This document shows, one piece after another, positions 1-40,014 of a DNA stretch of 64,000 bases (position 1 is the stretch's first letter; every line of letters starts with the position of its first letter). A program made the translations under genes and the position numbers. The stretch comes from Bacillota bacterium (GTDB taxonomy: Bacteria > Bacillota > Dehalobacteriia > UBA4068). The notes beneath the pieces were generated by a model, which worked only from the letters and a program-made list of their open reading frames with translations, was not told where the DNA came from and made no database searches. The stretch covers positions 148,109 through 212,108 of the forward strand of contig JAVBKT010000002.1 of the NCBI GenBank assembly GCA_031553915.1, read 5' to 3'.

Positions 1-156
1 ATCCATAACCTCACCCATATGCGTTTTGAACTGCTGATGCACCTGCTCGGTTGAAGATTCCTGCGTGGCATAGTGATACAGCGCGCCCAGAGTTTTGGCG
101 GTTAAAAGAACATCTTCCATATATTCTCTATCTTGCATATTATTAACCTCAGTCAT
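1..156 (-). CDS. CotF-like spore coat protein (YraF/YhcQ-like, Coat_F domain). It is partial: the N-terminal part lies in the window and the 3' end runs off the window start.
   Basis: Minus-strand translation from ATG at 154-156 gives MTEVNNMQDREYMEDVLLTAKTLGALYHYATQESSTEQVHQQFKTHMGEVMD. This matches the Coat_F pattern (DxxxExxxxKxxxxxYxxAxxE). RBS GGAGGAG at 162-168 overlaps the stop of the upstream gene. Confidence 0.5.
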   Translation of the reverse strand, partial: MTEVNNMQDREYMEDVLLTAKTLGALYHYATQESSTEQVHQQFKTHMGEVMD

Positions 157-168
157 TTTTTCTCCTCC

Positions 169-357
169 TTAGCCATTAAGTTCATTCATCAGACAAGAGA
201 ACCGTTTTTGATGCTCTTTTGCCAACTGAGAAAGCATATTTTGCAACTGAGCATCGCCTATTTTGGCCGCATAATCATTGCACTTAATCTGCAATTGCTG
301 CTCCATGCCCATAGAATCCTCCAGATACATTAATTCCTTTGGGGTCATTGTCATCGT
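169..357 (-). CDS. CotF/YraD-like small spore coat protein (Coat_F domain), 62 aa
   Basis: ORF-track protein contains MTMTPKELMYLEDSMGMEQQLQIKCNDYAAKIGDAQLQNMLSQLAKEHQKRF, resembling YraD-type Coat_F proteins. Start moved to ATG at 355-357, which follows AAAGGAGGAAGAACG. It is translationally coupled to the downstream CotF-like gene. Confidence 0.55.
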   Translation of the reverse strand, partial: TMTMTPKELMYLEDSMGMEQQLQIKCNDYAAKIGDAQLQNMLSQLAKEHQKRFSCLMNELNG

Positions 358-546
358 TCTTCCTCCTTTAATATCTTTTTTCATAAGCTGCTTTCTTAGT
401 ATCAACCAAATTTTGTTTGCTATACACTAATCAAAAATAAATATACGACAATGTTTATTTATAAATAATTTTGTTTAATACTTGCAATTTACTAGTGAAA
501 TCAGCTATAATTAATTTTAATAAATACTCGCGATCAGGAGATCATT

Positions 547-8891: not shown

Positions 8892-9083
8892 CTATTGCTT
8901 TTCTGCGGGGCTCTGGCCATGGCATATGGAGGAGCCAGAACAACATCCGCAGTCGCTTCCGCAGCTGCAGGTAGTTCCTTTTTTGCGGTCGCGCACAATT
9001 TTTCTGATAACCAAAGCTAGGATAGCAATAAGAATAAGACTGATAATAATTGTTGCCAGGTTATTTATGATAAATTCTAACAT
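8892..9083 (-). CDS. FeoB-associated Cys-rich membrane protein (FeoC-like, 63 aa)
   Basis: One TM helix followed by GTTCSCGSDCGCCSGSSIC. RBS GAGGTG with 6 nt spacing. Lies immediately downstream of feoB. Confidence 0.7.
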   Translation of the reverse strand: MLEFIINNLATIIISLILIAILALVIRKIVRDRKKGTTCSCGSDCGCCSGSSICHGQSPAEKQ

Positions 9084-9103: not shown

Positions 9104-11242
9104 TTATGCTTTATTTGCTGTTTTTATCATACCACTGCTATTAGTATTCCGTCTAGCCATTAAATAAACAATTAGAGCCACCAGGATTATCGCTGCCACA
9201 GTGCCGATGCCGAAAGCGCCGCCAGTGAACAAAGAACCAATCTGGAAGATAATCAAGGCAATTACATAGGCGAAAACGGTTTGATAGCCAACCGCGAACC
9301 AGGTCCATTTGGCGCTGTTCATCTCACGTCTGGTAGCGCCGATAGCGGCAAAGCATGGGGCGCACAGCAGGTTGAAGACAAGGAAGGCAAAGGCAGCCAT
9401 TCCGGAAAAATCAGCGGCCATCATGCTCCAAAATTCCATGCCGTCTTCAGCAACTTCAGCAAAGCCATAGAGAATACCCATGGTAGCAACAACGGTCTCT
9501 TTGGCAATCAGCCCGGTGAAAGTGGCCACTGTGGCCTGCCAGGTGCCAAAGCCAAGCGGTACGAAAATAAAGGCAATCGCTGTACCAATTACCGCCAGCA
9601 AACCATCGTTAATATCTTCCACCATCATAAACTGGCCGTCAACAAAGCCAAAGCTCATCAGGAACCAGATCAGAATAGAAGAAAGCAAAATGATGGTACC
9701 GGCGCGTTTGATGAAAGACCAGCCGCGTTCCCACATGCTGAGCAGCACTCTGCTGACCCGGGGCATATGATAGGCAGGCAGCTCCATGACAAAAGGAGCA
9801 GGCTCACCCTTGAACATCTTGGTTTTTTTCAAGATAATACCGGAAACGATAATCGCAGCGATGCCGATGAAATAGGCGCTTGTCGCTACCCACCAGGAAC
9901 CATCGAACAGGGCGCCGGCAATCAAAGCAATAATCGGCAGCTTGGCGCCGCAAGGCATGAAAATAGTCGTAATAACAGTCATGCGGCGGTCGCGCTCGTT
10001 TTCAATAGTACGGGTAGCCATAATGCCGGGAACAGCACAACCGGTAGAAATTAACATCGGGATAAAGGATTTGCCGGAAAGACCAAAGCGGCGGAAAATG
10101 CGGTCCATGATAAAGGCCACGCGCGCCATATAACCGCAGCCCTCCAGGAAGGCCAGGAAGATGAACAAAATCAACATCTGCGGCACAAAACCAAGCACAG
10201 CGCCGACGCCGGCGATAATACCGTCGACAACCAGCCCGGATAACCACGGCGCAGCATTGACGCTTTCCAGCCAGCCGCTAACCGCGGGAGGGATAATCTC
10301 GCCAAACAGGACATCATTGGTCCAACCGGTCACCCAATCACCCACGGTGGTGATGGAAACATAATAAACAAGAGCCATCACTGCGGCAAAAATCGGCAGA
10401 GCCAACCAACGGTTGGTGACAATGCGGTCAATTTTATCCGAGCGGCTCATCAGATCTTTACTCTTTTTTTGATAACTGTCTTTTATAATAGAAGTAATAT
10501 ATGTATAGCGTTCATTGGTAATGATGCTCTCGGCATCATCATCCATTTCTTGTTCAACTTTGGCAATTATGGCCTCATTTGCATTATTGAGCGGCATCTG
10601 GGCAATAATTTTTTCATCACGCTCAAAAAGCTTAACCGCATAGAATCTTTTGAAATTATCAGCCACTGATGCAGGAAGACTGCTTTCTAGCTCAGCCAGA
10701 GCAGCTTCTACACTTGGACCAAATTTATGCTGCGGGGCTTTGCCTGTTGTTGCAGCCAAGGCAATGGCAGCGTCAGCTGCGGCAGCAATGCCGGTGCCTT
10801 TTAAGGCGGAAATCTCCACCACCTGACAGCCAAGAGCATCAGACAGCTTATGGGTATCAATGCTATCCCCTGCTTTGTGTACTATGTCCATCATATTGAC
10901 TGCAACCAGTACCGGGATGCCCAGCTCCAATAATTGCGTAGTTAAGTAGAGGTTTCTCTCCAAATTACTGCCGTCAACAATATTGACAATCACATCCGGG
11001 TTTTCGGTCAATAAATAATTTCTGCTGACAACTTCTTCCAATGTATATGGAGACAGCGAATAAATACCGGGAAGGTCGATCAGTCTTGCGTCTTTATGAC
11101 CTTTGATTTTACCCTCTTTTTTTTCAACGGTAACGCCGGGCCAGTTGCCTACATACTGGTTGGCGCCGGTCAAAGCATTAAAAAGTGTAGTTTTACCACT
11201 ATTCGGATTGCCCGCTAAGGCAATATTAATTGACATTGTCAT
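9104..11242 (-). CDS. feoB: Ferrous iron transport protein B
   Basis: 712 aa protein. N-terminal G-domain (IALAGNPNSGKTTLFNALTG) followed by polytopic permease domains. Confidence 0.95.
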   Translation of the reverse strand: MTMSINIALAGNPNSGKTTLFNALTGANQYVGNWPGVTVEKKEGKIKGHKDARLIDLPGIYSLSPYTLEEVVSRNYLLTENPDVIVNIVDGSNLERNLYLTTQLLELGIPVLVAVNMMDIVHKAGDSIDTHKLSDALGCQVVEISALKGTGIAAAADAAIALAATTGKAPQHKFGPSVEAALAELESSLPASVADNFKRFYAVKLFERDEKIIAQMPLNNANEAIIAKVEQEMDDDAESIITNERYTYITSIIKDSYQKKSKDLMSRSDKIDRIVTNRWLALPIFAAVMALVYYVSITTVGDWVTGWTNDVLFGEIIPPAVSGWLESVNAAPWLSGLVVDGIIAGVGAVLGFVPQMLILFIFLAFLEGCGYMARVAFIMDRIFRRFGLSGKSFIPMLISTGCAVPGIMATRTIENERDRRMTVITTIFMPCGAKLPIIALIAGALFDGSWWVATSAYFIGIAAIIVSGIILKKTKMFKGEPAPFVMELPAYHMPRVSRVLLSMWERGWSFIKRAGTIILLSSILIWFLMSFGFVDGQFMMVEDINDGLLAVIGTAIAFIFVPLGFGTWQATVATFTGLIAKETVVATMGILYGFAEVAEDGMEFWSMMAADFSGMAAFAFLVFNLLCAPCFAAIGATRREMNSAKWTWFAVGYQTVFAYVIALIIFQIGSLFTGGAFGIGTVAAIILVALIVYLMARRNTNSSGMIKTANKA

Positions 11243-11323: not shown

Positions 11324-11545
11324 TCAACTGATCTCAATCATCTCAGCGTCGGCTTTGCGCAAGGATAACTCATAACCCCTGACATTAATCTCAACCGGGT
11401 CGCCAAGAGGCGCTACCTTGCGTACAAATATCTGCACGCCTTTAGTGATACCCATATCCATAATACGGCGCTTAATGGCACCCTCACCATGGAGCTTCAC
11501 TACGGTTACTGTTGAGCCAACAGCAACATCCTTTAATGTTTGCAT
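11324..11545 (-). CDS. feoA: Ferrous iron transport protein A
   Basis: 73 aa FeoA/SH3-like protein (LKDVAVGSTVTVVKL...RRIMDMGITKG...GDPVEINVRGYELSLRK). Confidence 0.85.
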   Translation of the reverse strand: MQTLKDVAVGSTVTVVKLHGEGAIKRRIMDMGITKGVQIFVRKVAPLGDPVEINVRGYELSLRKADAEMIEIS

Positions 11546-11560
11546 GACTTCTTTGCTCCT

Positions 11561-11770
11561 TTAAACCATAATTTTATTGGCCATCTCTTGGCTAATCGCT
11601 ATCCTGGAATCTTTAACATTGACAATAACATTGCCGCAGCTTTTGGAAACCAAAGTAACATCACTTCCGACCACAAAACCAAGTGATGTCAAAAAATGGC
11701 GAATATCATCTTTGCCGCCAACTTTTTTTATTGATTTTTTTTCTCCGGTTTGTGCCATTGGCAAAGGCAT
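11561..11770 (-). CDS. feoA: Ferrous iron transport protein A (second FeoA paralog), 69 aa
   Basis: FeoA-like (GEKKSIKKVGGKDDIRHFLTSLGFVVGSDVTLVSK...GNVIVNVKDSRIAI). Start moved to the ATG preceded by AGGAGTGATAAT. The track ORF runs upstream from a TTG with no RBS. Confidence 0.7.
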   Translation of the reverse strand: MPLPMAQTGEKKSIKKVGGKDDIRHFLTSLGFVVGSDVTLVSKSCGNVIVNVKDSRIAISQEMANKIMV

Positions 11771-11812
11771 ATTATCACTCCTATTCGCTCTGGATAACTG
11801 CACATTCCAAAA

Positions 11813-11900
11813 GTTAGCCTTTTCTAACCAAATATATGTTAGCATAAGCTAACTTTTTTGTCAAGAGCTTTTTGCAATTTTCATTTTGTATGTTATAATT
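11813..11900. promoter_or_regulatory. Divergent promoter region carrying two GTTAG(C)...(G)CTAAC palindromes, likely metalloregulator operators
   Basis: Perfect 16 bp palindrome GTTAGCATAAGCTAAC at 11838-11853 fills the 17 bp spacer of a minus-strand promoter (TTGACA-17-TAACAT) reading into feoA. A second inverted repeat GTTAG-N6-CTAAC lies at 11814-11829. The plus-strand promoter TTGCAA(11873-11878)-16-TATAAT(11895-11900) reads into the DtxR-family gene. Confidence 0.45.
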
Positions 11901-17728: not shown

Positions 17729-18223
17729 TCAGTCTTTTTTGGCGGCGGCCTTTTTCTTCTGATAAACCATCTCGGCAATACCATAATAAATAGGAATAGT
17801 AAGAAAAATCAACCAGGCAAACCCCCAACCAATATCGGTAAAAATAAAGATAAAAAACAATATAGTCGCAACAACAGGATAAGGAAACAAAAACATACCG
17901 CCCTTGCGTTTTCTTTCATACCTTCGATCAATTGGTATGCACTCTGACGCATAGTCATCAGCGGTATTCTTAGTCTCTTCCCGTTTTGTCTCTTCCCTTT
18001 TTGTCTCCTCCTTTTCTTCTGTTGATATCAAGAGAAGTTCATCCAAAGAAATTTGGTATAACTCAGCAAGGGCAATCAGATTATCCGTATCCGGAGAGGA
18101 TTCCGCCCGCTCCCATTTTGAAACAGCTTGACGGCTGATGCCTAATCTTTCTGCCAGCTCTTCTTGAGAAAGCCCTCTTTCTTTGCGCAGGTTGACTAAT
18201 TTATTGGCAATTTCAATGTTCAT
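17729..18223 (-). CDS. XRE-family HTH regulator with a C-terminal membrane anchor
   Basis: N-terminal HTH_XRE (LRKERGLSQEELAERLGISRQAVSKWERAES), a linker with tandem EETKREETKREETK, and a C-terminal two-TM-helix segment. Confidence 0.75.
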   Translation of the reverse strand: MNIEIANKLVNLRKERGLSQEELAERLGISRQAVSKWERAESSPDTDNLIALAELYQISLDELLLISTEEKEETKREETKREETKNTADDYASECIPIDRRYERKRKGGMFLFPYPVVATILFFIFIFTDIGWGFAWLIFLTIPIYYGIAEMVYQKKKAAAKKD

Positions 18224-18309: not shown

Positions 18310-18489
18310 CTATTGGTTGCAAAAGCCAAATTCATGCCATAAAGCAGCTTTATCGCTAAAGGCATTATAATCATCATACCACACAATATCACCACTGTCA
18401 TCTGCCCGCTGCACCGCATTGCCACGGCTGGCTAAAGGTATTCCTTGCTGCCCGTGTTGCCTCCATGCTGCGCGGATTTTTTGTATCAT
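18310..18489 (-). CDS. Possible small protein-coding gene (59 aa) that is not in the ORF track
   Basis: Minus-strand ORF MIQKIRAAWRQHGQQGIPLASRGNAVQRADDSGDIVWYDDYNAFSDKAALWHEFGFCNQ. It is preceded by GGGAGGG with 7 nt spacing. No recognisable family. Confidence 0.25.
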   Translation of the reverse strand: MIQKIRAAWRQHGQQGIPLASRGNAVQRADDSGDIVWYDDYNAFSDKAALWHEFGFCNQ

Positions 18490-18594
18490 CTCTTAACCCT
18501 CCCAAGGCTTCACTGATAGACACTAATATTCCTGTTGCCGCATAAAATAGTATAAGAGCTATTATTACGCCTGGTCCATACGGAGGTATCTACA

Positions 18595-19413
18595 ATGCAT
18601 CTAAATAATAATTGCCATAGTGGGAAAAACCTTCACTGCTGCCAACAGCCCTGCTGTGCGGTTTTTCCGCCTTGTCCATCAGTCCCCAACACCTTTAGCG
18701 TGATCTACAACCCCAATGGCGGTATTGGTGGCGGTGCGGATTTCAATTTAATCTCCGGCTCATCCTATACAATAAAGCTGCCTGAAAGCACCGGGGTATC
18801 GCGTCCCGGTTCCCCCTTTTTGGGATGGAATACCCTGCCTGATGGCAATGGTACAGCCTATTCGCCCGGTCAGATTATTACCATCACCGGAAATTTGACC
18901 CTCTACGCGCAGTGGCTGCAAATTCCGGAGCAAACCGTATCAATAACTTATAATGCCAACGGAGGTACCGGCAGCGGTGCGGTTGATTCTAATGTGCCTT
19001 TGGGCGAAGAATATACGGTTAAGCGGCCGACAGATGTAGATATCTCACGCCAAGGCTTCACCTTTATCACTTGGAGTACCGCAGCTGACGGCAGCGGCGA
19101 TAACTATGCCCCGGGTCAGGTTATTGTACCAACAGCAGACATGACCCTCTATGCACAGTGGGAGGCGCAGCCAATACCAGCAGTGATCACCTATAATGCC
19201 AACGGAGGAACCGGCGGCTCTGCTGATTCTGCCGTGGTCAATGAGGAATATACCTTCAAAAGACCGGCGGACGCCAATGTATCACGCCAGAGTGCGTCCT
19301 TTATCACCTGGAGTACCGTAGCAGACGGCAGCGGCACAAACTATGCTCCAGGCGAGGTTATTACTGTCAGCGGTGATCTCACGGTATATGCTATCTGGCA
19401 GATTGATCAATAA
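18595..19413 (+). CDS. Protein with a Cys-rich N-terminus and three tandem Flg_new (Listeria-Bacteroides repeat) domains
   Basis: 272 aa. N-terminal MHLNNNCHSGKNLHCCQQPCCAVFPPCP with no signal peptide. Three ~80 aa repeats follow, each of the form ITYNANGGTG...YT.K.P...SR.G..FI.W.T..DGSG.NYAPG..I.....LTLYAQW. RBS GGAGGT with 8 nt spacing. Confidence 0.8.
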   Translation: MHLNNNCHSGKNLHCCQQPCCAVFPPCPSVPNTFSVIYNPNGGIGGGADFNLISGSSYTIKLPESTGVSRPGSPFLGWNTLPDGNGTAYSPGQIITITGNLTLYAQWLQIPEQTVSITYNANGGTGSGAVDSNVPLGEEYTVKRPTDVDISRQGFTFITWSTAADGSGDNYAPGQVIVPTADMTLYAQWEAQPIPAVITYNANGGTGGSADSAVVNEEYTFKRPADANVSRQSASFITWSTVADGSGTNYAPGEVITVSGDLTVYAIWQIDQ

Positions 19414-19446
19414 CCAGCATTATTAAACCTGATACCAGAAAGATAT

Positions 19447-19480
19447 AACCCCTTGAGATTAAAGCCTCAAGGGGTTGGCT
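19447..19480. terminator. Hairpin terminator between the convergent Flg_new gene and histidine kinase gene
   Basis: Inverted repeat AACCCCTTGAG-N8-CTCAAGGGGTT. The flanking U-runs are weak. Confidence 0.4.
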
Positions 19481-38159: not shown

Positions 38160-38768
38160 CTATAACGGAGCTTGGCAAGTCAATATTGGCTGAATTTGTT
38201 GGCCACGTAAGGCGGCGGCCAAAGTTTGGGGAATCTGTTTCATATCCGCCATCAGCGAGTTTGGTTTGTTGGCCGGATTGTCCTGACCAAAAGGCACAAA
38301 ATAGCAATTTTTATAATTCATCAATGTGCCGAAATTTTTGGCATTAGCGGCTAAACCGTCATTGGTAGAAATGGCGATCACCAATGGCCGGGCATTACGC
38401 AAATGTGATTTTGCCGCCATAATCACCGGCGTATCAATAATAGCATTGGCCAGCTTGGAAATGCTATTGCCCGTGCAGGGCGCAATCAGCATAATGTCGC
38501 ATAAACCATTGGGGCCGATCGGCTCCGCTTTGGTAATGCTGTCAATGATGCTCTCCGCGCCGGAGGCTGCCAGTATGGCCTGCTGCCAGTGCTGGGCAGT
38601 GCCAAAACGCGTATCAGTATCGCGAACATGATCAGAAATAATCGGCACAATGTTAGCGCCCAAGCTTTTCAGATATTCCATTACGCTGATTGCTGCCGCT
38701 AAGGTACAAAAAGAGCCGGTCAGCGCAAAACCAATATTTTTTCCTTTGAAAATATCCTGTTCTGTCAT
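38160..38768 (-). CDS. dpaB: Dipicolinate synthase subunit B (flavoprotein, SpoVFB)
   Basis: 202 aa. Flavoprotein fold (GKNIGFALTGSFC), positioned after dpaA and before asd. Confidence 0.85.
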   Translation of the reverse strand: MTEQDIFKGKNIGFALTGSFCTLAAAISVMEYLKSLGANIVPIISDHVRDTDTRFGTAQHWQQAILAASGAESIIDSITKAEPIGPNGLCDIMLIAPCTGNSISKLANAIIDTPVIMAAKSHLRNARPLVIAISTNDGLAANAKNFGTLMNYKNCYFVPFGQDNPANKPNSLMADMKQIPQTLAAALRGQQIQPILTCQAPL

Positions 38769-39646
38769 TTTGCCCCTCCTTCCTCGCTCAATTCCTTAAT
38801 AAAACTGGGGTAAAAATCAGCCATAATCTGTCCGGCAAAAGCTGCCGCATACTTGCCCGGCATACCCCCGGCATGGATAGCTTTGATCCCTCTGCGCTCA
38901 GCAGCGACAAAATCCGTGCCTCCGGGATAAGCAGCCAGATCAATAATGGCCGTATCCCGATGCAAAAGGCCGATAATCACTTCATCCAGGAGCAGACTAG
39001 GCGCGGTATTAAAAATATAATCCGCCTCCCGCGCAGCTGCCACCAATTGCGGCCGTCCCACTACGCTATAGCCCATTTCCACCGCCTCCTGGCTGCGCTT
39101 TTGCCCGCGGTTGAGCACTGTAACATTCATGCCCAGGCCGTCCAGACGCCAAGCCAGCTCTTTGCCGATGCGGCCAAAGCCGATCAGCAAGGCTTTATGC
39201 CCCAGCAAAACACGGTCATCCAGGCTGATCGCTTCCGCTATCGCCCCTTCCGCAGTGGCAGCAGCGAGCGGTACGGCCATTCTGTCATCCTCTGTCAATT
39301 CATAAATATGGCAATGCTCCGCCTGAATGCGCAGCGTCATCGACGCTACCCCGCAAAGAATGGCTGTACCCGGAGCCAGAGCTTCAAAATCATCTTCACC
39401 CAAATAGACCGGGTGCAGGCATAAGCTAGATAAACGCCCGTCTTTGGCCAGCGGCGGCTGCGGCAAAATACAGATATCAGCAGCACTAAAGGCGGACTTA
39501 ATATCTGTTACTGTCCTGATCCCCTGCGGCAATAATTCACTGGGGCAGCCATAGGCCCAAACCTCATAACCAGCGTCCTGCAACGCTGTCATCACCGGTA
39601 TTTCCCGTTTATCCCCACCACAAAAAACTATCTTCCCCACAGCCAT
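38765..39646 (-). CDS. dpaA: Dipicolinate synthase subunit A (SpoVFA). The start is uncertain.
   Basis: Aligns with B. subtilis SpoVFA from MAVGKIVFCGGDKREIP. GGAGGG sits directly beside ATG 39646, so a GTG 6 nt downstream may be the true start. The track ORF extends to 39769 with no RBS. Confidence 0.8.
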   Translation of the reverse strand: MAVGKIVFCGGDKREIPVMTALQDAGYEVWAYGCPSELLPQGIRTVTDIKSAFSAADICILPQPPLAKDGRLSSLCLHPVYLGEDDFEALAPGTAILCGVASMTLRIQAEHCHIYELTEDDRMAVPLAAATAEGAIAEAISLDDRVLLGHKALLIGFGRIGKELAWRLDGLGMNVTVLNRGQKRSQEAVEMGYSVVGRPQLVAAAREADYIFNTAPSLLLDEVIIGLLHRDTAIIDLAAYPGGTDFVAAERRGIKAIHAGGMPGKYAAAFAGQIMADFYPSFIKELSEEGGAK

Positions 39647-39689: not shown

Positions 39690-39750
39690 GTGCTTGGACA
39701 GCTGCGCCTTTTCCGCAAAAGAAAAGAACAGCATACTCGAGTTGAGCTGC
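39690..39750 (-). terminator. Probable terminator of hfq
   Basis: Minus-strand hairpin AAAAGAACAGCAGCTCAACTCGAGTATGCTGTTCTTTT followed by a CTTTT run. Coordinates are approximate. Confidence 0.45.
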
Positions 39751-39777
39751 TGTTCTTTTCCTCAATCAAAACTAATA

Positions 39778-40014
39778 TTAATCTTGATACGCCTCTAAAT
39801 TATGCAGATCCAGAGGCTCGGTCGGAATAATGGTACTAATTGCGTGCTTGAAAATCATCTCCTGGTCTTTGCCGCAGGCAACTATTACCGTAAAGCTATC
39901 AAAAGCTTCGACTATTCCTTTTAGTTGAAAACCATTGACGAGAAAAAAAGTGGCGGGTATCTTTTGCTTACGAATCGCATTGAGGTACAACTCCTGCAAA
40001 CCGGGTTGTTTCAT
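39778..40014 (-). CDS. hfq: RNA chaperone Hfq
   Basis: 78 aa from MKQPGLQELYLNAIRKQKIPATFFLVNGFQLKG (Sm fold). Start is the ATG at 40012-40014, 7 nt after GGAGG. It begins 2 nt after the miaA stop. Confidence 0.9.
   Translation of the reverse strand: MKQPGLQELYLNAIRKQKIPATFFLVNGFQLKGIVEAFDSFTVIVACGKDQEMIFKHAISTIIPTEPLDLHNLEAYQD

What the first reader, a model, noticed from the sequence alone, without database searches (positions are those of the whole stretch)
18490..19413. Triple Flg_new-repeat protein with no signal peptide and a Cys-rich N-terminus, behind a sigmaK-like promoter; a candidate spore coat or exosporium component
Flg_new (Listeria-Bacteroides) repeats normally occur in secreted surface proteins. 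This 272 aa protein has no signal peptide. It starts instead with a cysteine cluster (CHSGKNLHCCQQPCCAVFPPCP), reminiscent of cysteine-rich coat and exosporium proteins. Upstream, ...GACAC-N17-CATAAAATA (about 18545-18570) fits the mother-cell sigmaK consensus AC-N16/17-CATAnnnTA. The organism carries spore genes, including CotF homologues in this window. The three repeats are only about 60% identical to each other, so they are diverged copies rather than a recent duplication.
Basis: partly seen in the sequence, partly recalled or inferred. Interest (0 to 1): 0.5.

Follow-up and report, generated by a model that had tools for sequence, protein, structure and literature searches.

The report
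Likely spore-surface Flg_new repeat protein
A small protein made of three "surface-adhesin stalk" repeats has no export signal. It carries a cysteine-rich head and sits behind a promoter of the type used late in spore formation, and both features recur in its relatives, so it is probably a previously unrecognised family of proteins fixed to the outside of bacterial spores.

Summary
ORF 18595-19413 (+) encodes 272 aa: a disordered N-terminus with 6 Cys in residues 7-27, then three Flg_new/InlB-B-repeat beta-grasp domains. There is no signal peptide, TM segment, lipobox or LPXTG, and an in-frame stop rules out an N-terminal extension. AC-N17-CATAAAATA lies at 18522-18549, 45 nt upstream of the ATG.

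Within the window this motif is no more frequent than chance (4 found, about 2.4 expected). The comparative evidence is what counts. The closest relatives form a distinct subfamily in Clostridia: 200-583 aa, no signal peptide, Cys/Pro-rich N-terminus, 2 to about 7 repeats. Of 11 assessable loci, 6 carry the strict sigmaK motif and 9 a relaxed one, 27-46 nt upstream of the start. Among control ORFs the rates are 0.5% and 1% (Fisher p about 1e-10 and 1e-15). No generic signal-peptide-bearing or viral Flg_new gene carries it. Flanking promoter sequence and gene neighbourhoods are not conserved.

The window encodes sporulation genes (dpaA/dpaB, ylzJ, Coat_F). Best reading: the protein is made in the mother cell and deposited on the spore surface, with a disulfide-forming N-terminal anchor analogous to Ena/L-BclA connectors. 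Localisation is inferred, not shown. No paper in the searched library links Flg_new to spores. Rated a new variant of a known kind, of moderate interest.

The parts
18519..18523 (+). -35 region GACAC; the AC at 18522-18523 is the sigmaK-type -35 element
   Evidence: Aligned family promoters share (G/A)nAC(A/C) at this spacing.
18541..18549 (+). -10 element CATAAAATA (matches CATAnnnTA), 17 nt downstream of the AC and 45 nt upstream of the ATG
   Evidence: CATAnnnT is conserved 27-46 nt upstream of the start in 9 of 11 family loci, against 11 of 1116 control ORFs.
18582..18586 (+). Ribosome-binding site GGAGG, 8 nt before the ATG
   Evidence: Read.
18595..19413 (+). Coding sequence, 272 aa, 28.6 kDa, pI 4.3; the stop codon is included
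   Evidence: An identical protein (P0001) is on record from an NCBI 356-kb contig and a Logan assembly.
18595..18690 (+). Residues 1-32: Cys/Pro-rich N-terminal segment predicted to be disordered (6 Cys, 5 Pro; CC at 15-16 and 20-21). Proposed disulfide anchor or connector.
   Evidence: AlphaFold2 pLDDT is below 50 for residues 1-18 and about 60 for 21-30. An equivalent Cys/Pro-rich segment is present in relatives.
18691..18918 (+). Flg_new repeat 1 (residues 33-108)
   Evidence: pLDDT above 90.
18934..19164 (+). Flg_new repeat 2 (residues 114-190)
19177..19401 (+). Flg_new repeat 3 (residues 195-269)
19446..19477 (.). 12-bp GC-rich hairpin between the convergent Flg_new gene and the histidine-kinase gene. 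It is a likely shared terminator, which would make the gene monocistronic.
   Evidence: terminator-like on the - strand. (-22 kcal/mol, z -3.6). There is no clear U-tail on the + strand.

Best explanation
**What it is.** The gene encodes a member of a previously undescribed subfamily of small Flg_new (InlB B-repeat) proteins of endospore-forming Clostridia.

**Proposed mechanism.**
1. The gene is transcribed late in sporulation in the mother cell, from a sigmaK-type promoter.
2. Spore coat and exosporium assemble from the mother-cell cytoplasm, so the protein needs no signal peptide.
3. It is laid down on the outer surface of the developing spore (coat, exosporium or an appendage).
4. The disordered Cys/Pro-rich N-terminal 30 residues act as an anchor or connector. 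They form intermolecular disulfides with Cys-rich surface-layer proteins or with each other.
5. The three beta-grasp Flg_new domains project outward as a short beads-on-a-string fibril (a stalk or adhesin).

**Shown:** the architecture, the absence of export signals, the promoter motif and its conservation across the subfamily, and the sporulation genes in the host.

**Inferred:** sigmaK dependence, spore-surface location, disulfide anchoring and any adhesive role.
For: **1. Architecture.**
- Three Flg_new domains.
- AlphaFold2 mean pLDDT 88, with three beta-grasp domains and a disordered N-terminus.
- Foldseek matches the InlB B-repeat 2y5p (TM 0.72 on the target) and tandem ubiquitin-like chains.

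**2. No Sec or Tat signal, lipobox, sortase motif or TM segment**, and the ORF cannot be extended upstream.

**3. The best full-length sequence relatives share the design.** P0003, P0004, P0006, P0007, P0012, P0013, P0015, P0064, the L002 protein and P0282 all have a Cys/Pro-rich N-terminus (4-12 Cys in the first 60 residues; the 70%-identical P0002 retains 3) directly before repeat 1, and no hydrophobic leader. By contrast, about 60 of the 79 generic Flg_new loci from genomes encode proteins of about 470-2900 aa with a clear hydrophobic leader; most of the rest are cut by a contig end or have an uncertain start.

**4. Promoter.**
- Strict AC-N16/17-CATAnnnTA is found in 6 of 11 family loci, and the relaxed CATAnnnT form in 9 of 11. 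The 3' end always lies 27-46 nt upstream of the start.
- Among 1116 control ORFs from the same sequences the counts are 6 and 11 (Fisher p 1.5e-10 and 1.2e-15).
- The strict motif occurs in none of 79 generic genomic Flg_new genes. The relaxed motif occurs in none of the Flg_new ORFs in 79 viral loci.
- Outside the two elements the promoters are only about 30% identical and the neighbouring genes differ. Conservation is therefore specific to the elements.

**5. SigmaK rather than sigmaE or sigmaG.** The -35 is AC, not ATA. PMC3789822 states that sigmaE and sigmaK share the -10 and differ in ATA versus AC at -35. No sigma-70-like promoter lies on the + strand upstream.

**6. The host is an endospore former.** It encodes dpaA (the exact protein is on record and its relatives are named dipicolinate synthase subunit A), a dpaB-like flavoprotein, ylzJ and a tepA-like ClpP, and Coat_F.

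**7. Precedent.** Ena1A/B, Ena3A and L-BclA are proteins of spore appendages. They carry short flexible N-terminal connectors with CC motifs that make intermolecular disulfides (PMC11362473; bioRxiv 10.1101/2025.02.11.637640). The Cys-rich CdeC and CdeM build the C. difficile exosporium (PMC6101409). In C. difficile, sigmaK controls cotA, cotE, bclA1-3 and dpaA (PMC3789822).

**8. The Cys-rich module also occurs at the C-terminus** of signal-peptide-less Flg_new proteins (P0046, P0281). One such operon has the relaxed motif. This fits a portable anchoring module.
Against: - There is no expression or localisation data of any kind.
- Within this window the motif is not enriched.
- The two recognisable late-sporulation loci in the window do not give a clean positive control. 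No strict motif lies directly upstream of the CotF pair. The strict motif near dpaA sits inside the hfq 3' end, separated from dpaA by a strong hairpin.
- The closest homologue, P0002 (70% identity), retains only 3 of the Cys and has lost both CC pairs, so a large cluster is not essential.
- Two family loci (L091, L002) lack even the relaxed motif. L002 has CATATGAAT.
- The family loci are not statistically independent in a strict sense, and several come from the same metagenome samples.
- A Cys-rich segment could instead bind metal.
- Flg_new has no defined biochemical function.
- Sporulation has not been verified for the cultured species that carry members (Diplocloster agilis, Clostridium sp. 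chh4-2).
Confidence: 0.6

Rival explanations
1. It is a vegetative cell-surface or secreted adhesin like other Flg_new proteins, exported by a non-classical route. The Cys-rich N-terminus would be an unrecognised export or attachment signal, and the promoter resemblance would be irrelevant.
For: Flg_new domains are overwhelmingly found in secreted, wall-anchored or lipoprotein surface proteins, and are treated as stalk domains of fibrillar adhesins (bioRxiv 10.1101/2021.12.07.471604). 66,333 cluster representatives match the profile, and the top hits are giant multi-repeat proteins.
Against: There is no hydrophobic or twin-arginine leader, no lipobox and no sortase motif. No secretion-system genes lie next to any family member. 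No sigma-70-type promoter lies on the coding strand. This reading does not explain why a mother-cell-type promoter is conserved in 9 of 11 loci.
Confidence: 0.1
2. It is made in the mother cell under sigmaK (or sigmaE) but is not a structural spore-surface component. It could be a soluble helper that binds a coat or exosporium glycan or protein during assembly, or a factor acting at mother-cell lysis. The Cys-rich end would be a metal-binding or redox-sensing element.
For: The promoter evidence is the same as for the main explanation. Cys/Pro-rich segments with CC and CxC spacing resemble metallothionein-like sequences as much as cross-linking hinges (read; own knowledge). P0002 keeps only 3 Cys.
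Against: Repetitive stalk domains with no catalytic or recognisable binding domain fit a structural or display role better. Cys-rich termini on either end of the protein parallel known spore-surface connectors (PMC11362473).
Confidence: 0.15
3. It is a prophage or phage-derived structural protein (a tail fibre or receptor-binding accessory). Such proteins also need no signal peptide because virions assemble in the cytoplasm.
For: Several signal-peptide-less Flg_new proteins among the hits have phage-like N-termini (for example P0036, P0049 and P0063). Viral contigs and phage records encode Flg_new repeats at 27-43% identity. The neighbour at 17729-18223 is an XRE/CI-like HTH protein.
Against: The only PHROG hit is weak (E 1e-4, a family of unknown function). 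No phage structural, lysis or integration genes lie near this gene or near any family member. None of the Flg_new ORFs in 79 viral loci has a Cys-rich terminus or the motif. GC content is only slightly above that of its surroundings.
Confidence: 0.05
4. The promoter match is a coincidence or reflects another sigma factor, and the protein is an ordinary cytoplasmic protein of unknown role.
For: The motif is short and degenerate. The window holds 4 matches against about 2.4 expected by chance.
Against: Position-specific recurrence in 9 of 11 homologous loci, against 1% of control ORFs, with unconserved flanks. The motif fits neither the sigmaG consensus (CATnnTA with a GnATR -35; own knowledge of the published consensus) nor sigma-70.
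Confidence: 0.05

Closest known systems
N-terminal connectors (Ntc) of Bacillus endospore-appendage proteins Ena1A/B and Ena3A, and of the tip fibrillum L-BclA
   Same: Both have a short, flexible N-terminal segment with CC motifs immediately before a folded domain. The Ena/L-BclA proteins are parts of spore appendages, and their connector cysteines form (or, for L-BclA, are proposed to form) intermolecular disulfides that tether the protein to a spore-borne structure (PMC11362473; bioRxiv 10.1101/2025.02.11.637640). Here CC pairs lie at residues 15-16 and 20-21, the segment is predicted to be disordered, and there is no signal peptide.
   Different: The passenger domain here is Flg_new beta-grasp repeats, not a DUF3992 jellyroll or collagen/C1q. 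The Cys segment is longer and proline-rich (CPPCP-like) in most relatives. No ena-like genes are adjacent. There is no sequence homology. The hosts are Clostridia rather than the B. cereus group.
Cysteine-rich exosporium and coat morphogenetic proteins (C. difficile CdeC and CdeM; Bacillus CotY/CotZ/ExsY)
   Same: These are mother-cell-made spore outer-layer proteins whose cysteines are thought to drive self-assembly and cross-linking (PMC6101409, PMC7677010).
   Different: In those proteins cysteines are spread through the whole sequence. Here all Cys lie in the first 27 residues and the rest is a Cys-free repeat array. No Pfam or NCBIfam similarity beyond Flg_new was found.
BclA-type exosporium nap glycoproteins
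   Same: The modular logic is the same: a short N-terminal targeting or anchoring segment plus an extended repetitive stalk displayed on the spore. Expression is sigmaK-dependent in C. difficile (PMC3789822).
   Different: There are no collagen-like GXX repeats and no C1q-like head. Read by eye, the N-terminus has no recognisable BclA-type exosporium leader motif. A different attachment chemistry is proposed (disulfide).
Conventional Flg_new / InlB B-repeat surface proteins (PF09479, TIGR02543)
   Same: The repeat domain and fold are the same.
   Different: Conventional members are generally large, with a signal peptide, wall-anchoring or lipoprotein signals, and additional functional domains. 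This subfamily is small, lacks a leader, has a Cys-rich head and sits behind a sporulation-type promoter.

Membership tests
Flg_new / Listeria-Bacteroides repeat (PF09479, TIGR02543) | HMM match above the curated threshold | tested here: met
   PF09479: 127 bits against a cutoff of 27, three stretches. TIGR02543: 41.7 bits against 20.95.
Flg_new / Listeria-Bacteroides repeat (PF09479, TIGR02543) | Beta-grasp fold of the InlB B-repeat | tested here: met
   AlphaFold2 domains have pLDDT above 90. Foldseek hits 2y5p (InlB B-repeat, TM 0.72 on the target, probability 1.0) and InlB 36-392 entries.
Flg_new / Listeria-Bacteroides repeat (PF09479, TIGR02543) | Usual context: secreted or surface-anchored protein with an N-terminal signal peptide (typical of the family, not definitional) | tested here: not met
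   No hydrophobic leader, Tat motif, lipobox or LPXTG. The ORF cannot be extended upstream.
SigmaK-dependent (late mother-cell) promoter | AC at -35, a 16-17 nt spacer, CATAnnnTA at -10, at a sensible distance from the start codon | tested here: met
   18522-18549, ending 45 nt upstream of the ATG. The consensus is as stated in PMC3789822.
SigmaK-dependent (late mother-cell) promoter | Motif conserved at the same position in orthologous or paralogous loci beyond background | tested here: met
   6 of 11 loci strict and 9 of 11 relaxed, against 6 and 11 of 1116 control ORFs. Flanking sequence is about 30% identical.
SigmaK-dependent (late mother-cell) promoter | Transcription depends on sigmaK and occurs in the mother cell | not testable with these tools
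   This needs RNA-seq or a reporter in a sporulating culture or a sigK mutant.
SigmaK-dependent (late mother-cell) promoter | The host is an endospore former with the late mother-cell programme | tested here: inconclusive
   dpaA, a dpaB-like gene, ylzJ, a tepA-like gene and Coat_F are present in the window. sigK itself is not in the window and the rest of the genome could not be fetched.
Ena/L-BclA-type N-terminal connector proteins | Short flexible N-terminal segment with a CC motif before the folded domain; no signal peptide | tested here: met
   CC at 15-16 and 20-21. pLDDT is below 50 for residues 1-18.
Ena/L-BclA-type N-terminal connector proteins | DUF3992 jellyroll subunit or collagen-like/C1q passenger; ena gene cluster | tested here: not met
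   Only Flg_new is detected. The neighbours are TetR, XRE-HTH, a hybrid histidine kinase, and Ada/AlkA and Ogt DNA-repair genes.
Ena/L-BclA-type N-terminal connector proteins | Connector cysteines form intermolecular disulfides with a spore-borne partner | not testable with these tools
   This needs biochemistry or cryo-EM.
Cys-rich exosporium/coat morphogenetic proteins (CdeC, CdeM, CotY/ExsY) | Sequence homology to those families | tested here: not met
   Pfam and NCBIfam hits other than Flg_new are all below their curated cutoffs or weak. phmmer against PDB sequences finds nothing.
Cys-rich exosporium/coat morphogenetic proteins (CdeC, CdeM, CotY/ExsY) | Location in the spore outer layers | not testable with these tools
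   No proteome or microscopy data are available.
Phage tail-fibre or receptor-binding proteins with Flg_new repeats | Phage family match and phage structural gene neighbourhood | tested here: not met
   Only phrog_4245 matches, at E 1e-4, function unknown. No phage genes occur in the contexts. No Flg_new ORF in 79 viral loci shows the Cys-rich end or the motif.

The most novel reading that the evidence does not exclude
The Cys/Pro-rich terminal segment may be a portable, disulfide-based 'spore-surface display tag' used by many uncultured gut and termite-gut Clostridia. It is N-terminal in this subfamily and C-terminal in relatives such as P0046 and P0281. It would fix leaderless Flg_new fibrils, and possibly other passengers such as a beta-helix domain, onto spores. 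That would define a new class of spore-surface adhesins relevant to the host-to-host transmission of anaerobic commensals.
Probability: 0.35. Interest if true: 0.7.

Novelty: new variant of a known kind. Interest (0 to 1): 0.52.

Why it matters
- **A gap in knowledge.** Spore outer layers of the abundant, mostly uncultured gut Clostridia are almost unknown, because few Bacillus or C. difficile coat proteins are conserved there.
- **A concrete candidate.** This is a conserved protein family that can be recognised from sequence: no leader, a Cys/Pro-rich head, Flg_new beads and a sigmaK-type promoter. It gives a specific candidate for what decorates these spores. It can be tested in cultured carriers (Diplocloster agilis, Clostridium sp. 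chh4-2).
- **A new role for the domain.** If confirmed, it would extend the Flg_new 'stalk' domain from vegetative adhesins to spores.
- **A wider principle.** It would also extend disulfide-tethered N-terminal connectors, so far known from B. cereus-group Ena/L-BclA proteins, to Clostridia.
- **Method.** Conservation of sporulation-sigma promoter motifs across homologous loci can flag spore proteins in metagenomes.

Tried and rejected
1. **Genome-contig scan with the family alignment.** It returned almost only large signal-peptide-bearing proteins. One extra family member (L002) was found, and the rest served as a control set.
2. **Profile search with the N-terminal 61-residue alignment A2.** It returned only 4 fragmentary proteins without the Cys head. 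No use.
3. **Exhaustive representative search with A1.** The top 150 hits were dominated by giant repeat proteins. It yielded only P0282 (same design, 583 aa) and P0281 (C-terminal Cys tail). The size of the subfamily could not be estimated.
4. **The listing of cluster members on window proteins.** I gave minus-strand coordinates that cut the wrong end, so 9 of 10 look-ups failed.
5. **DpaA search.** It confirmed dpaA. The nearest named relatives are only 'Firmicutes/Bacillota bacterium' MAGs (at most 55% identity), so the host is an uncultured Bacillota lineage.
6. **dpaA as an internal positive control for the motif.** Rejected as unclean. The strict motif at 39796-39822 lies in the hfq 3' end, with a 20-bp hairpin (-26 kcal/mol) between it and dpaA.
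7. **Phage origin.** Rejected.
8. **Forespore sigma (sigmaG/F) or sigma-70 promoter.** The consensus does not fit and no sigma-70-like site lies on the + strand.
9. **Lipoprotein, sortase or Tat routes.** No motifs.
10. **RiPP precursor reading of the Cys-rich head.** Not pursued, because no radical-SAM or lanthipeptide genes are adjacent in any locus.
11. **Literature searches for Flg_new with spores.** Nothing was found.
Full report
**What is there**

The ORF at 18595-19413 (+) starts with ATG, 8 nt after a GGAGG, and encodes 272 aa. An in-frame TAA at 18553-18555 with no start codon after it rules out a longer N-terminus. Pfam finds three Flg_new (PF09479) repeats (E 3.1e-37; 127 bits against a cutoff of 27), and NCBIfam finds TIGR02543. 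The repeats are 45%, 50% and 64% identical to one another at the protein level.

All six cysteines lie at residues 7, 15, 16, 20, 21 and 27, in MHLNNNCHSGKNLHCCQQPCCAVFPPCPSVPN. The repeat array has no Cys. The most hydrophobic 12-residue stretch of the first 45 residues scores 1.11, against about 1.9-3.6 in most Flg_new proteins that have signal peptides. The most hydrophobic 19-residue window of the whole protein scores 0.97. There is no twin-arginine motif, lipobox or LPXTG.

AlphaFold2 was run with the 10-sequence family alignment and gave mean pLDDT 88. The N-terminus is disordered (pLDDT below 50 for residues 1-18, about 60 for 21-30) and is followed by three confident beta-grasp domains. 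Foldseek matches the InlB B-repeat (2y5p, TM 0.72 on the target), InlB 36-392 and tandem ubiquitin-like chains. A 12-bp GC-rich hairpin at 19446-19477 separates the gene from the convergent hybrid histidine kinase. The upstream neighbour is a divergent 59-aa ORF with no family. The gene therefore appears to be monocistronic.

**The promoter motif**

GACAC (AC at 18522-18523), a 17-nt spacer and CATAAAATA (18541-18549) are present. On its own this is weak evidence. The window holds 4 strict matches on both strands, against about 2.4 expected from shuffles. No sigma-70-like promoter lies on the coding strand between 18200 and 18595.

**A distinct subfamily**

A search of 5.8 billion proteins found one identical protein (NCBI 356-kb contig and a Logan assembly) and a 70% identical one. 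Below these come relatives at 40-58% identity, and among the best full-length matches the design repeats:
- no hydrophobic leader;
- a Cys/Pro-rich N-terminus, for example CCPACSQCMPTCCCDPCRICRPCPPCPPEP in P0007 and CPCPCPRPCPPCPPCP in P0006;
- two to four Flg_new repeats starting 5-8 residues after the last Cys.

Named carriers are Diplocloster agilis (synonym Suonthocola fibrivorans; Lachnospiraceae), Clostridium sp. chh4-2 and a Christensenellaceae single-cell genome. A termite-gut Clostridia MAG carries a four-repeat member (L002). An exhaustive representative search added a 583-aa member with about seven repeats (P0282).

Two relatives carry the Cys-rich segment at the C-terminus instead. 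P0046 follows a beta-helix-like gene. P0281, at 1195 aa, fuses a beta-helix, Flg_new repeats and a tail with 14 Cys in its last 50 residues.

By contrast, about 60 of the 79 other Flg_new loci recovered from genomes encode proteins of about 470-2900 aa with a clear hydrophobic leader. Most of the rest are cut by a contig end or have an uncertain start.

**Conservation of the promoter**

I fetched the DNA around the family members. The neighbouring genes differ in every lineage, so no operon or island is conserved. Nevertheless the strict motif AC-N16/17-CATAnnnTA occurs with its 3' end 27-45 nt upstream of the start in 6 of 11 assessable loci. A relaxed form (CATAnnnT; three loci have CATAAAATG) occurs in 9 of 11.

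| Gene set | Strict motif | Relaxed motif |
|---|---|---|
| Family loci (11) | 6 | 9 |
| Control ORFs of at least 100 aa from the same sequences (1116) | 6 | 11 |
| Generic genomic Flg_new genes (79) | 0 | not counted |
| Flg_new ORFs in viral contig loci (79 loci) | not counted separately | 0 |

Fisher's exact test against the control ORFs gives p = 1.5e-10 (strict) and 1.2e-15 (relaxed).

When the promoters are anchored on the -10, they share (G/A)nAC(A/C) and CATAnnnT(A/G) and little else. Ungapped identity outside the two elements averages 30%. This is a phylogenetic footprint of the two promoter elements, not residual similarity.

According to PMC3789822, sigmaE and sigmaK promoters in C. 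difficile and B. subtilis share the -10 and differ at -35 (ATA for sigmaE, AC for sigmaK). The family has AC. Positions 5-6 of the -10 are not the CA typical of sigmaE, and the motif does not fit the sigmaG consensus (own knowledge of the published consensus sequences).

**Is the host a spore former?**

The window encodes:
- dpaA (38768-39640, -; DpaA_N domain). The exact protein is on record and its relatives are named dipicolinate synthase subunit A.
- An adjacent flavoprotein (a dpaB-like gene), ylzJ and a tepA-like ClpP.
- A Coat_F domain protein cut by the window edge (1-156, -).

The nearest named DpaA relatives are only 'Firmicutes/Bacillota bacterium' MAGs (at most 55% identity), so the host is an uncultured Bacillota lineage.

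Two caveats apply. The CotF pair has no strict motif upstream. The strict motif near dpaA (39796-39822) lies inside the hfq 3' end, upstream of a strong hairpin. The window therefore offers no clean internal positive control.

**Interpretation**

A leaderless protein under a late mother-cell promoter is what is expected of a coat, exosporium or appendage component, since these layers assemble from the mother-cell cytoplasm.

A disordered N-terminal segment with CC motifs in front of a folded domain is how Ena1A/B, Ena3A and L-BclA are disulfide-tethered, or are proposed to be, on B. cereus-group spores (PMC11362473; bioRxiv 10.1101/2025.02.11.637640). Cys-rich proteins also build the C. difficile exosporium (PMC6101409). 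Flg_new domains are regarded as stalk domains of fibrillar adhesins (bioRxiv 10.1101/2021.12.07.471604).

I therefore propose a disulfide-anchored three-bead fibril on the spore surface. The steps from promoter motif to sigmaK dependence, from leaderless to spore-deposited, and from Cys-rich to disulfide anchor are all inferences.

Points against:
- P0002, the closest homologue, keeps only three Cys.
- Two loci lack even the relaxed motif.
- The family loci are not fully independent.
- A metal-binding role for the head cannot be excluded.

**Rivals**
- Non-classical secretion to the vegetative surface. This does not explain the promoter, and no secretion genes are nearby.
- A mother-cell helper that is not part of the spore structure.
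- Phage origin. The PHROG hit is weak, the contexts are not phage-like, and no viral Flg_new ORF has the distinguishing features.
- A chance promoter match, which the cross-locus statistics contradict.

**Novelty**

Full-text searches found no paper that links Flg_new, the InlB B-repeat or TIGR02543 with spores. Database names for family members are only 'InlB B-repeat-containing protein' or 'hypothetical'. The principle (a mother-cell-made, Cys-tethered spore-surface protein) is known. The domain combination, the clostridial hosts and the family itself are new. I rate it a new variant of a known kind, of moderate interest, and testable in cultured carriers.

Noticed in passing
window 39796-39822 (-), with 39715-39760 and dpaA 38768-39640 (-): A second strict sigmaK-type motif (ACCGAGCCTCTGGATCTGCATAATTTA) lies inside the 3' end of an Hfq-like ORF (by its sequence), about 155 nt upstream of the dpaA GTG start. 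A 20-bp hairpin (-26 kcal/mol, z -4.8, U-rich tail) lies between them. Either this is a read-through arrangement for the dpaA-dpaB operon or the match is chance.
   Followed up: partly
window 1-405 (-): A Coat_F domain protein is cut by the window edge (1-156; PF07875, E 4e-8). It is preceded by a 61-aa ORF (about 172-354) with no family hit, reminiscent of the C. difficile CD0596-cotF arrangement. No strict sigmaK motif lies upstream.
   Followed up: partly
L094 1694-3574; P0281; P0046: Some leaderless Flg_new proteins carry the Cys-rich segment at the C-terminus. P0046 ends ...CCTCKPICCYPCCDYYESC.... P0281 has 14 Cys in its last 50 residues. Both are preceded by, or fused to, a beta-helix-like domain. 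The L094 operon has AC-N16-CATAAAATG 32 nt upstream of its first gene. This suggests a wider class of Cys-tagged leaderless proteins.
   Followed up: partly
L093 1-130 (P0013): The called start of P0013 is probably too far downstream. The reading frame stays open upstream and would add MCIHQHSGMCCRGPSYHCCPCCP to the N-terminus, making it as Cys-rich as the other members. The contig is too short to see its promoter.
   Followed up: partly
window 8892-9083 (-), next to 9104-11242 (-) and 11324-11845 (-): A 63-aa ORF ending in ...CSCGSDCGCCSGSSIC lies just downstream of a 712-aa ORF and two FeoA-like small ORFs. It looks like the known FeoB-associated Cys-rich small membrane protein (own knowledge; not scanned).
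   Followed up: no
window 18310-18489 (-) and 17729-18223 (-): The divergent upstream neighbours are a 59-aa ORF with no Pfam or PHROG family, which is also called as a gene on the Logan contig L001, and an XRE-type HTH protein whose C-terminal part is strongly hydrophobic by eye (possibly membrane-anchored). Their relation to the Flg_new gene is unknown.
   Followed up: no
L085 4432-5000: In Clostridium sp. chh4-2 the family gene follows a 176-aa ORF of unknown family by only 38 nt. The sigmaK-type -35 element lies inside the 3' end of that ORF, so it may be an internal promoter or the two genes may be co-transcribed.
   Followed up: no
P0036, P0043, P0049, P0063, P0072, P0084, P0090, P0107: Several other leaderless Flg_new proteins have conserved non-Cys N-terminal domains, for example MGHNASWKNP... 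and MATFSLNYSANGGSGAP.... These look like separate families and may be phage-related. None is close to this subfamily.
   Followed up: no
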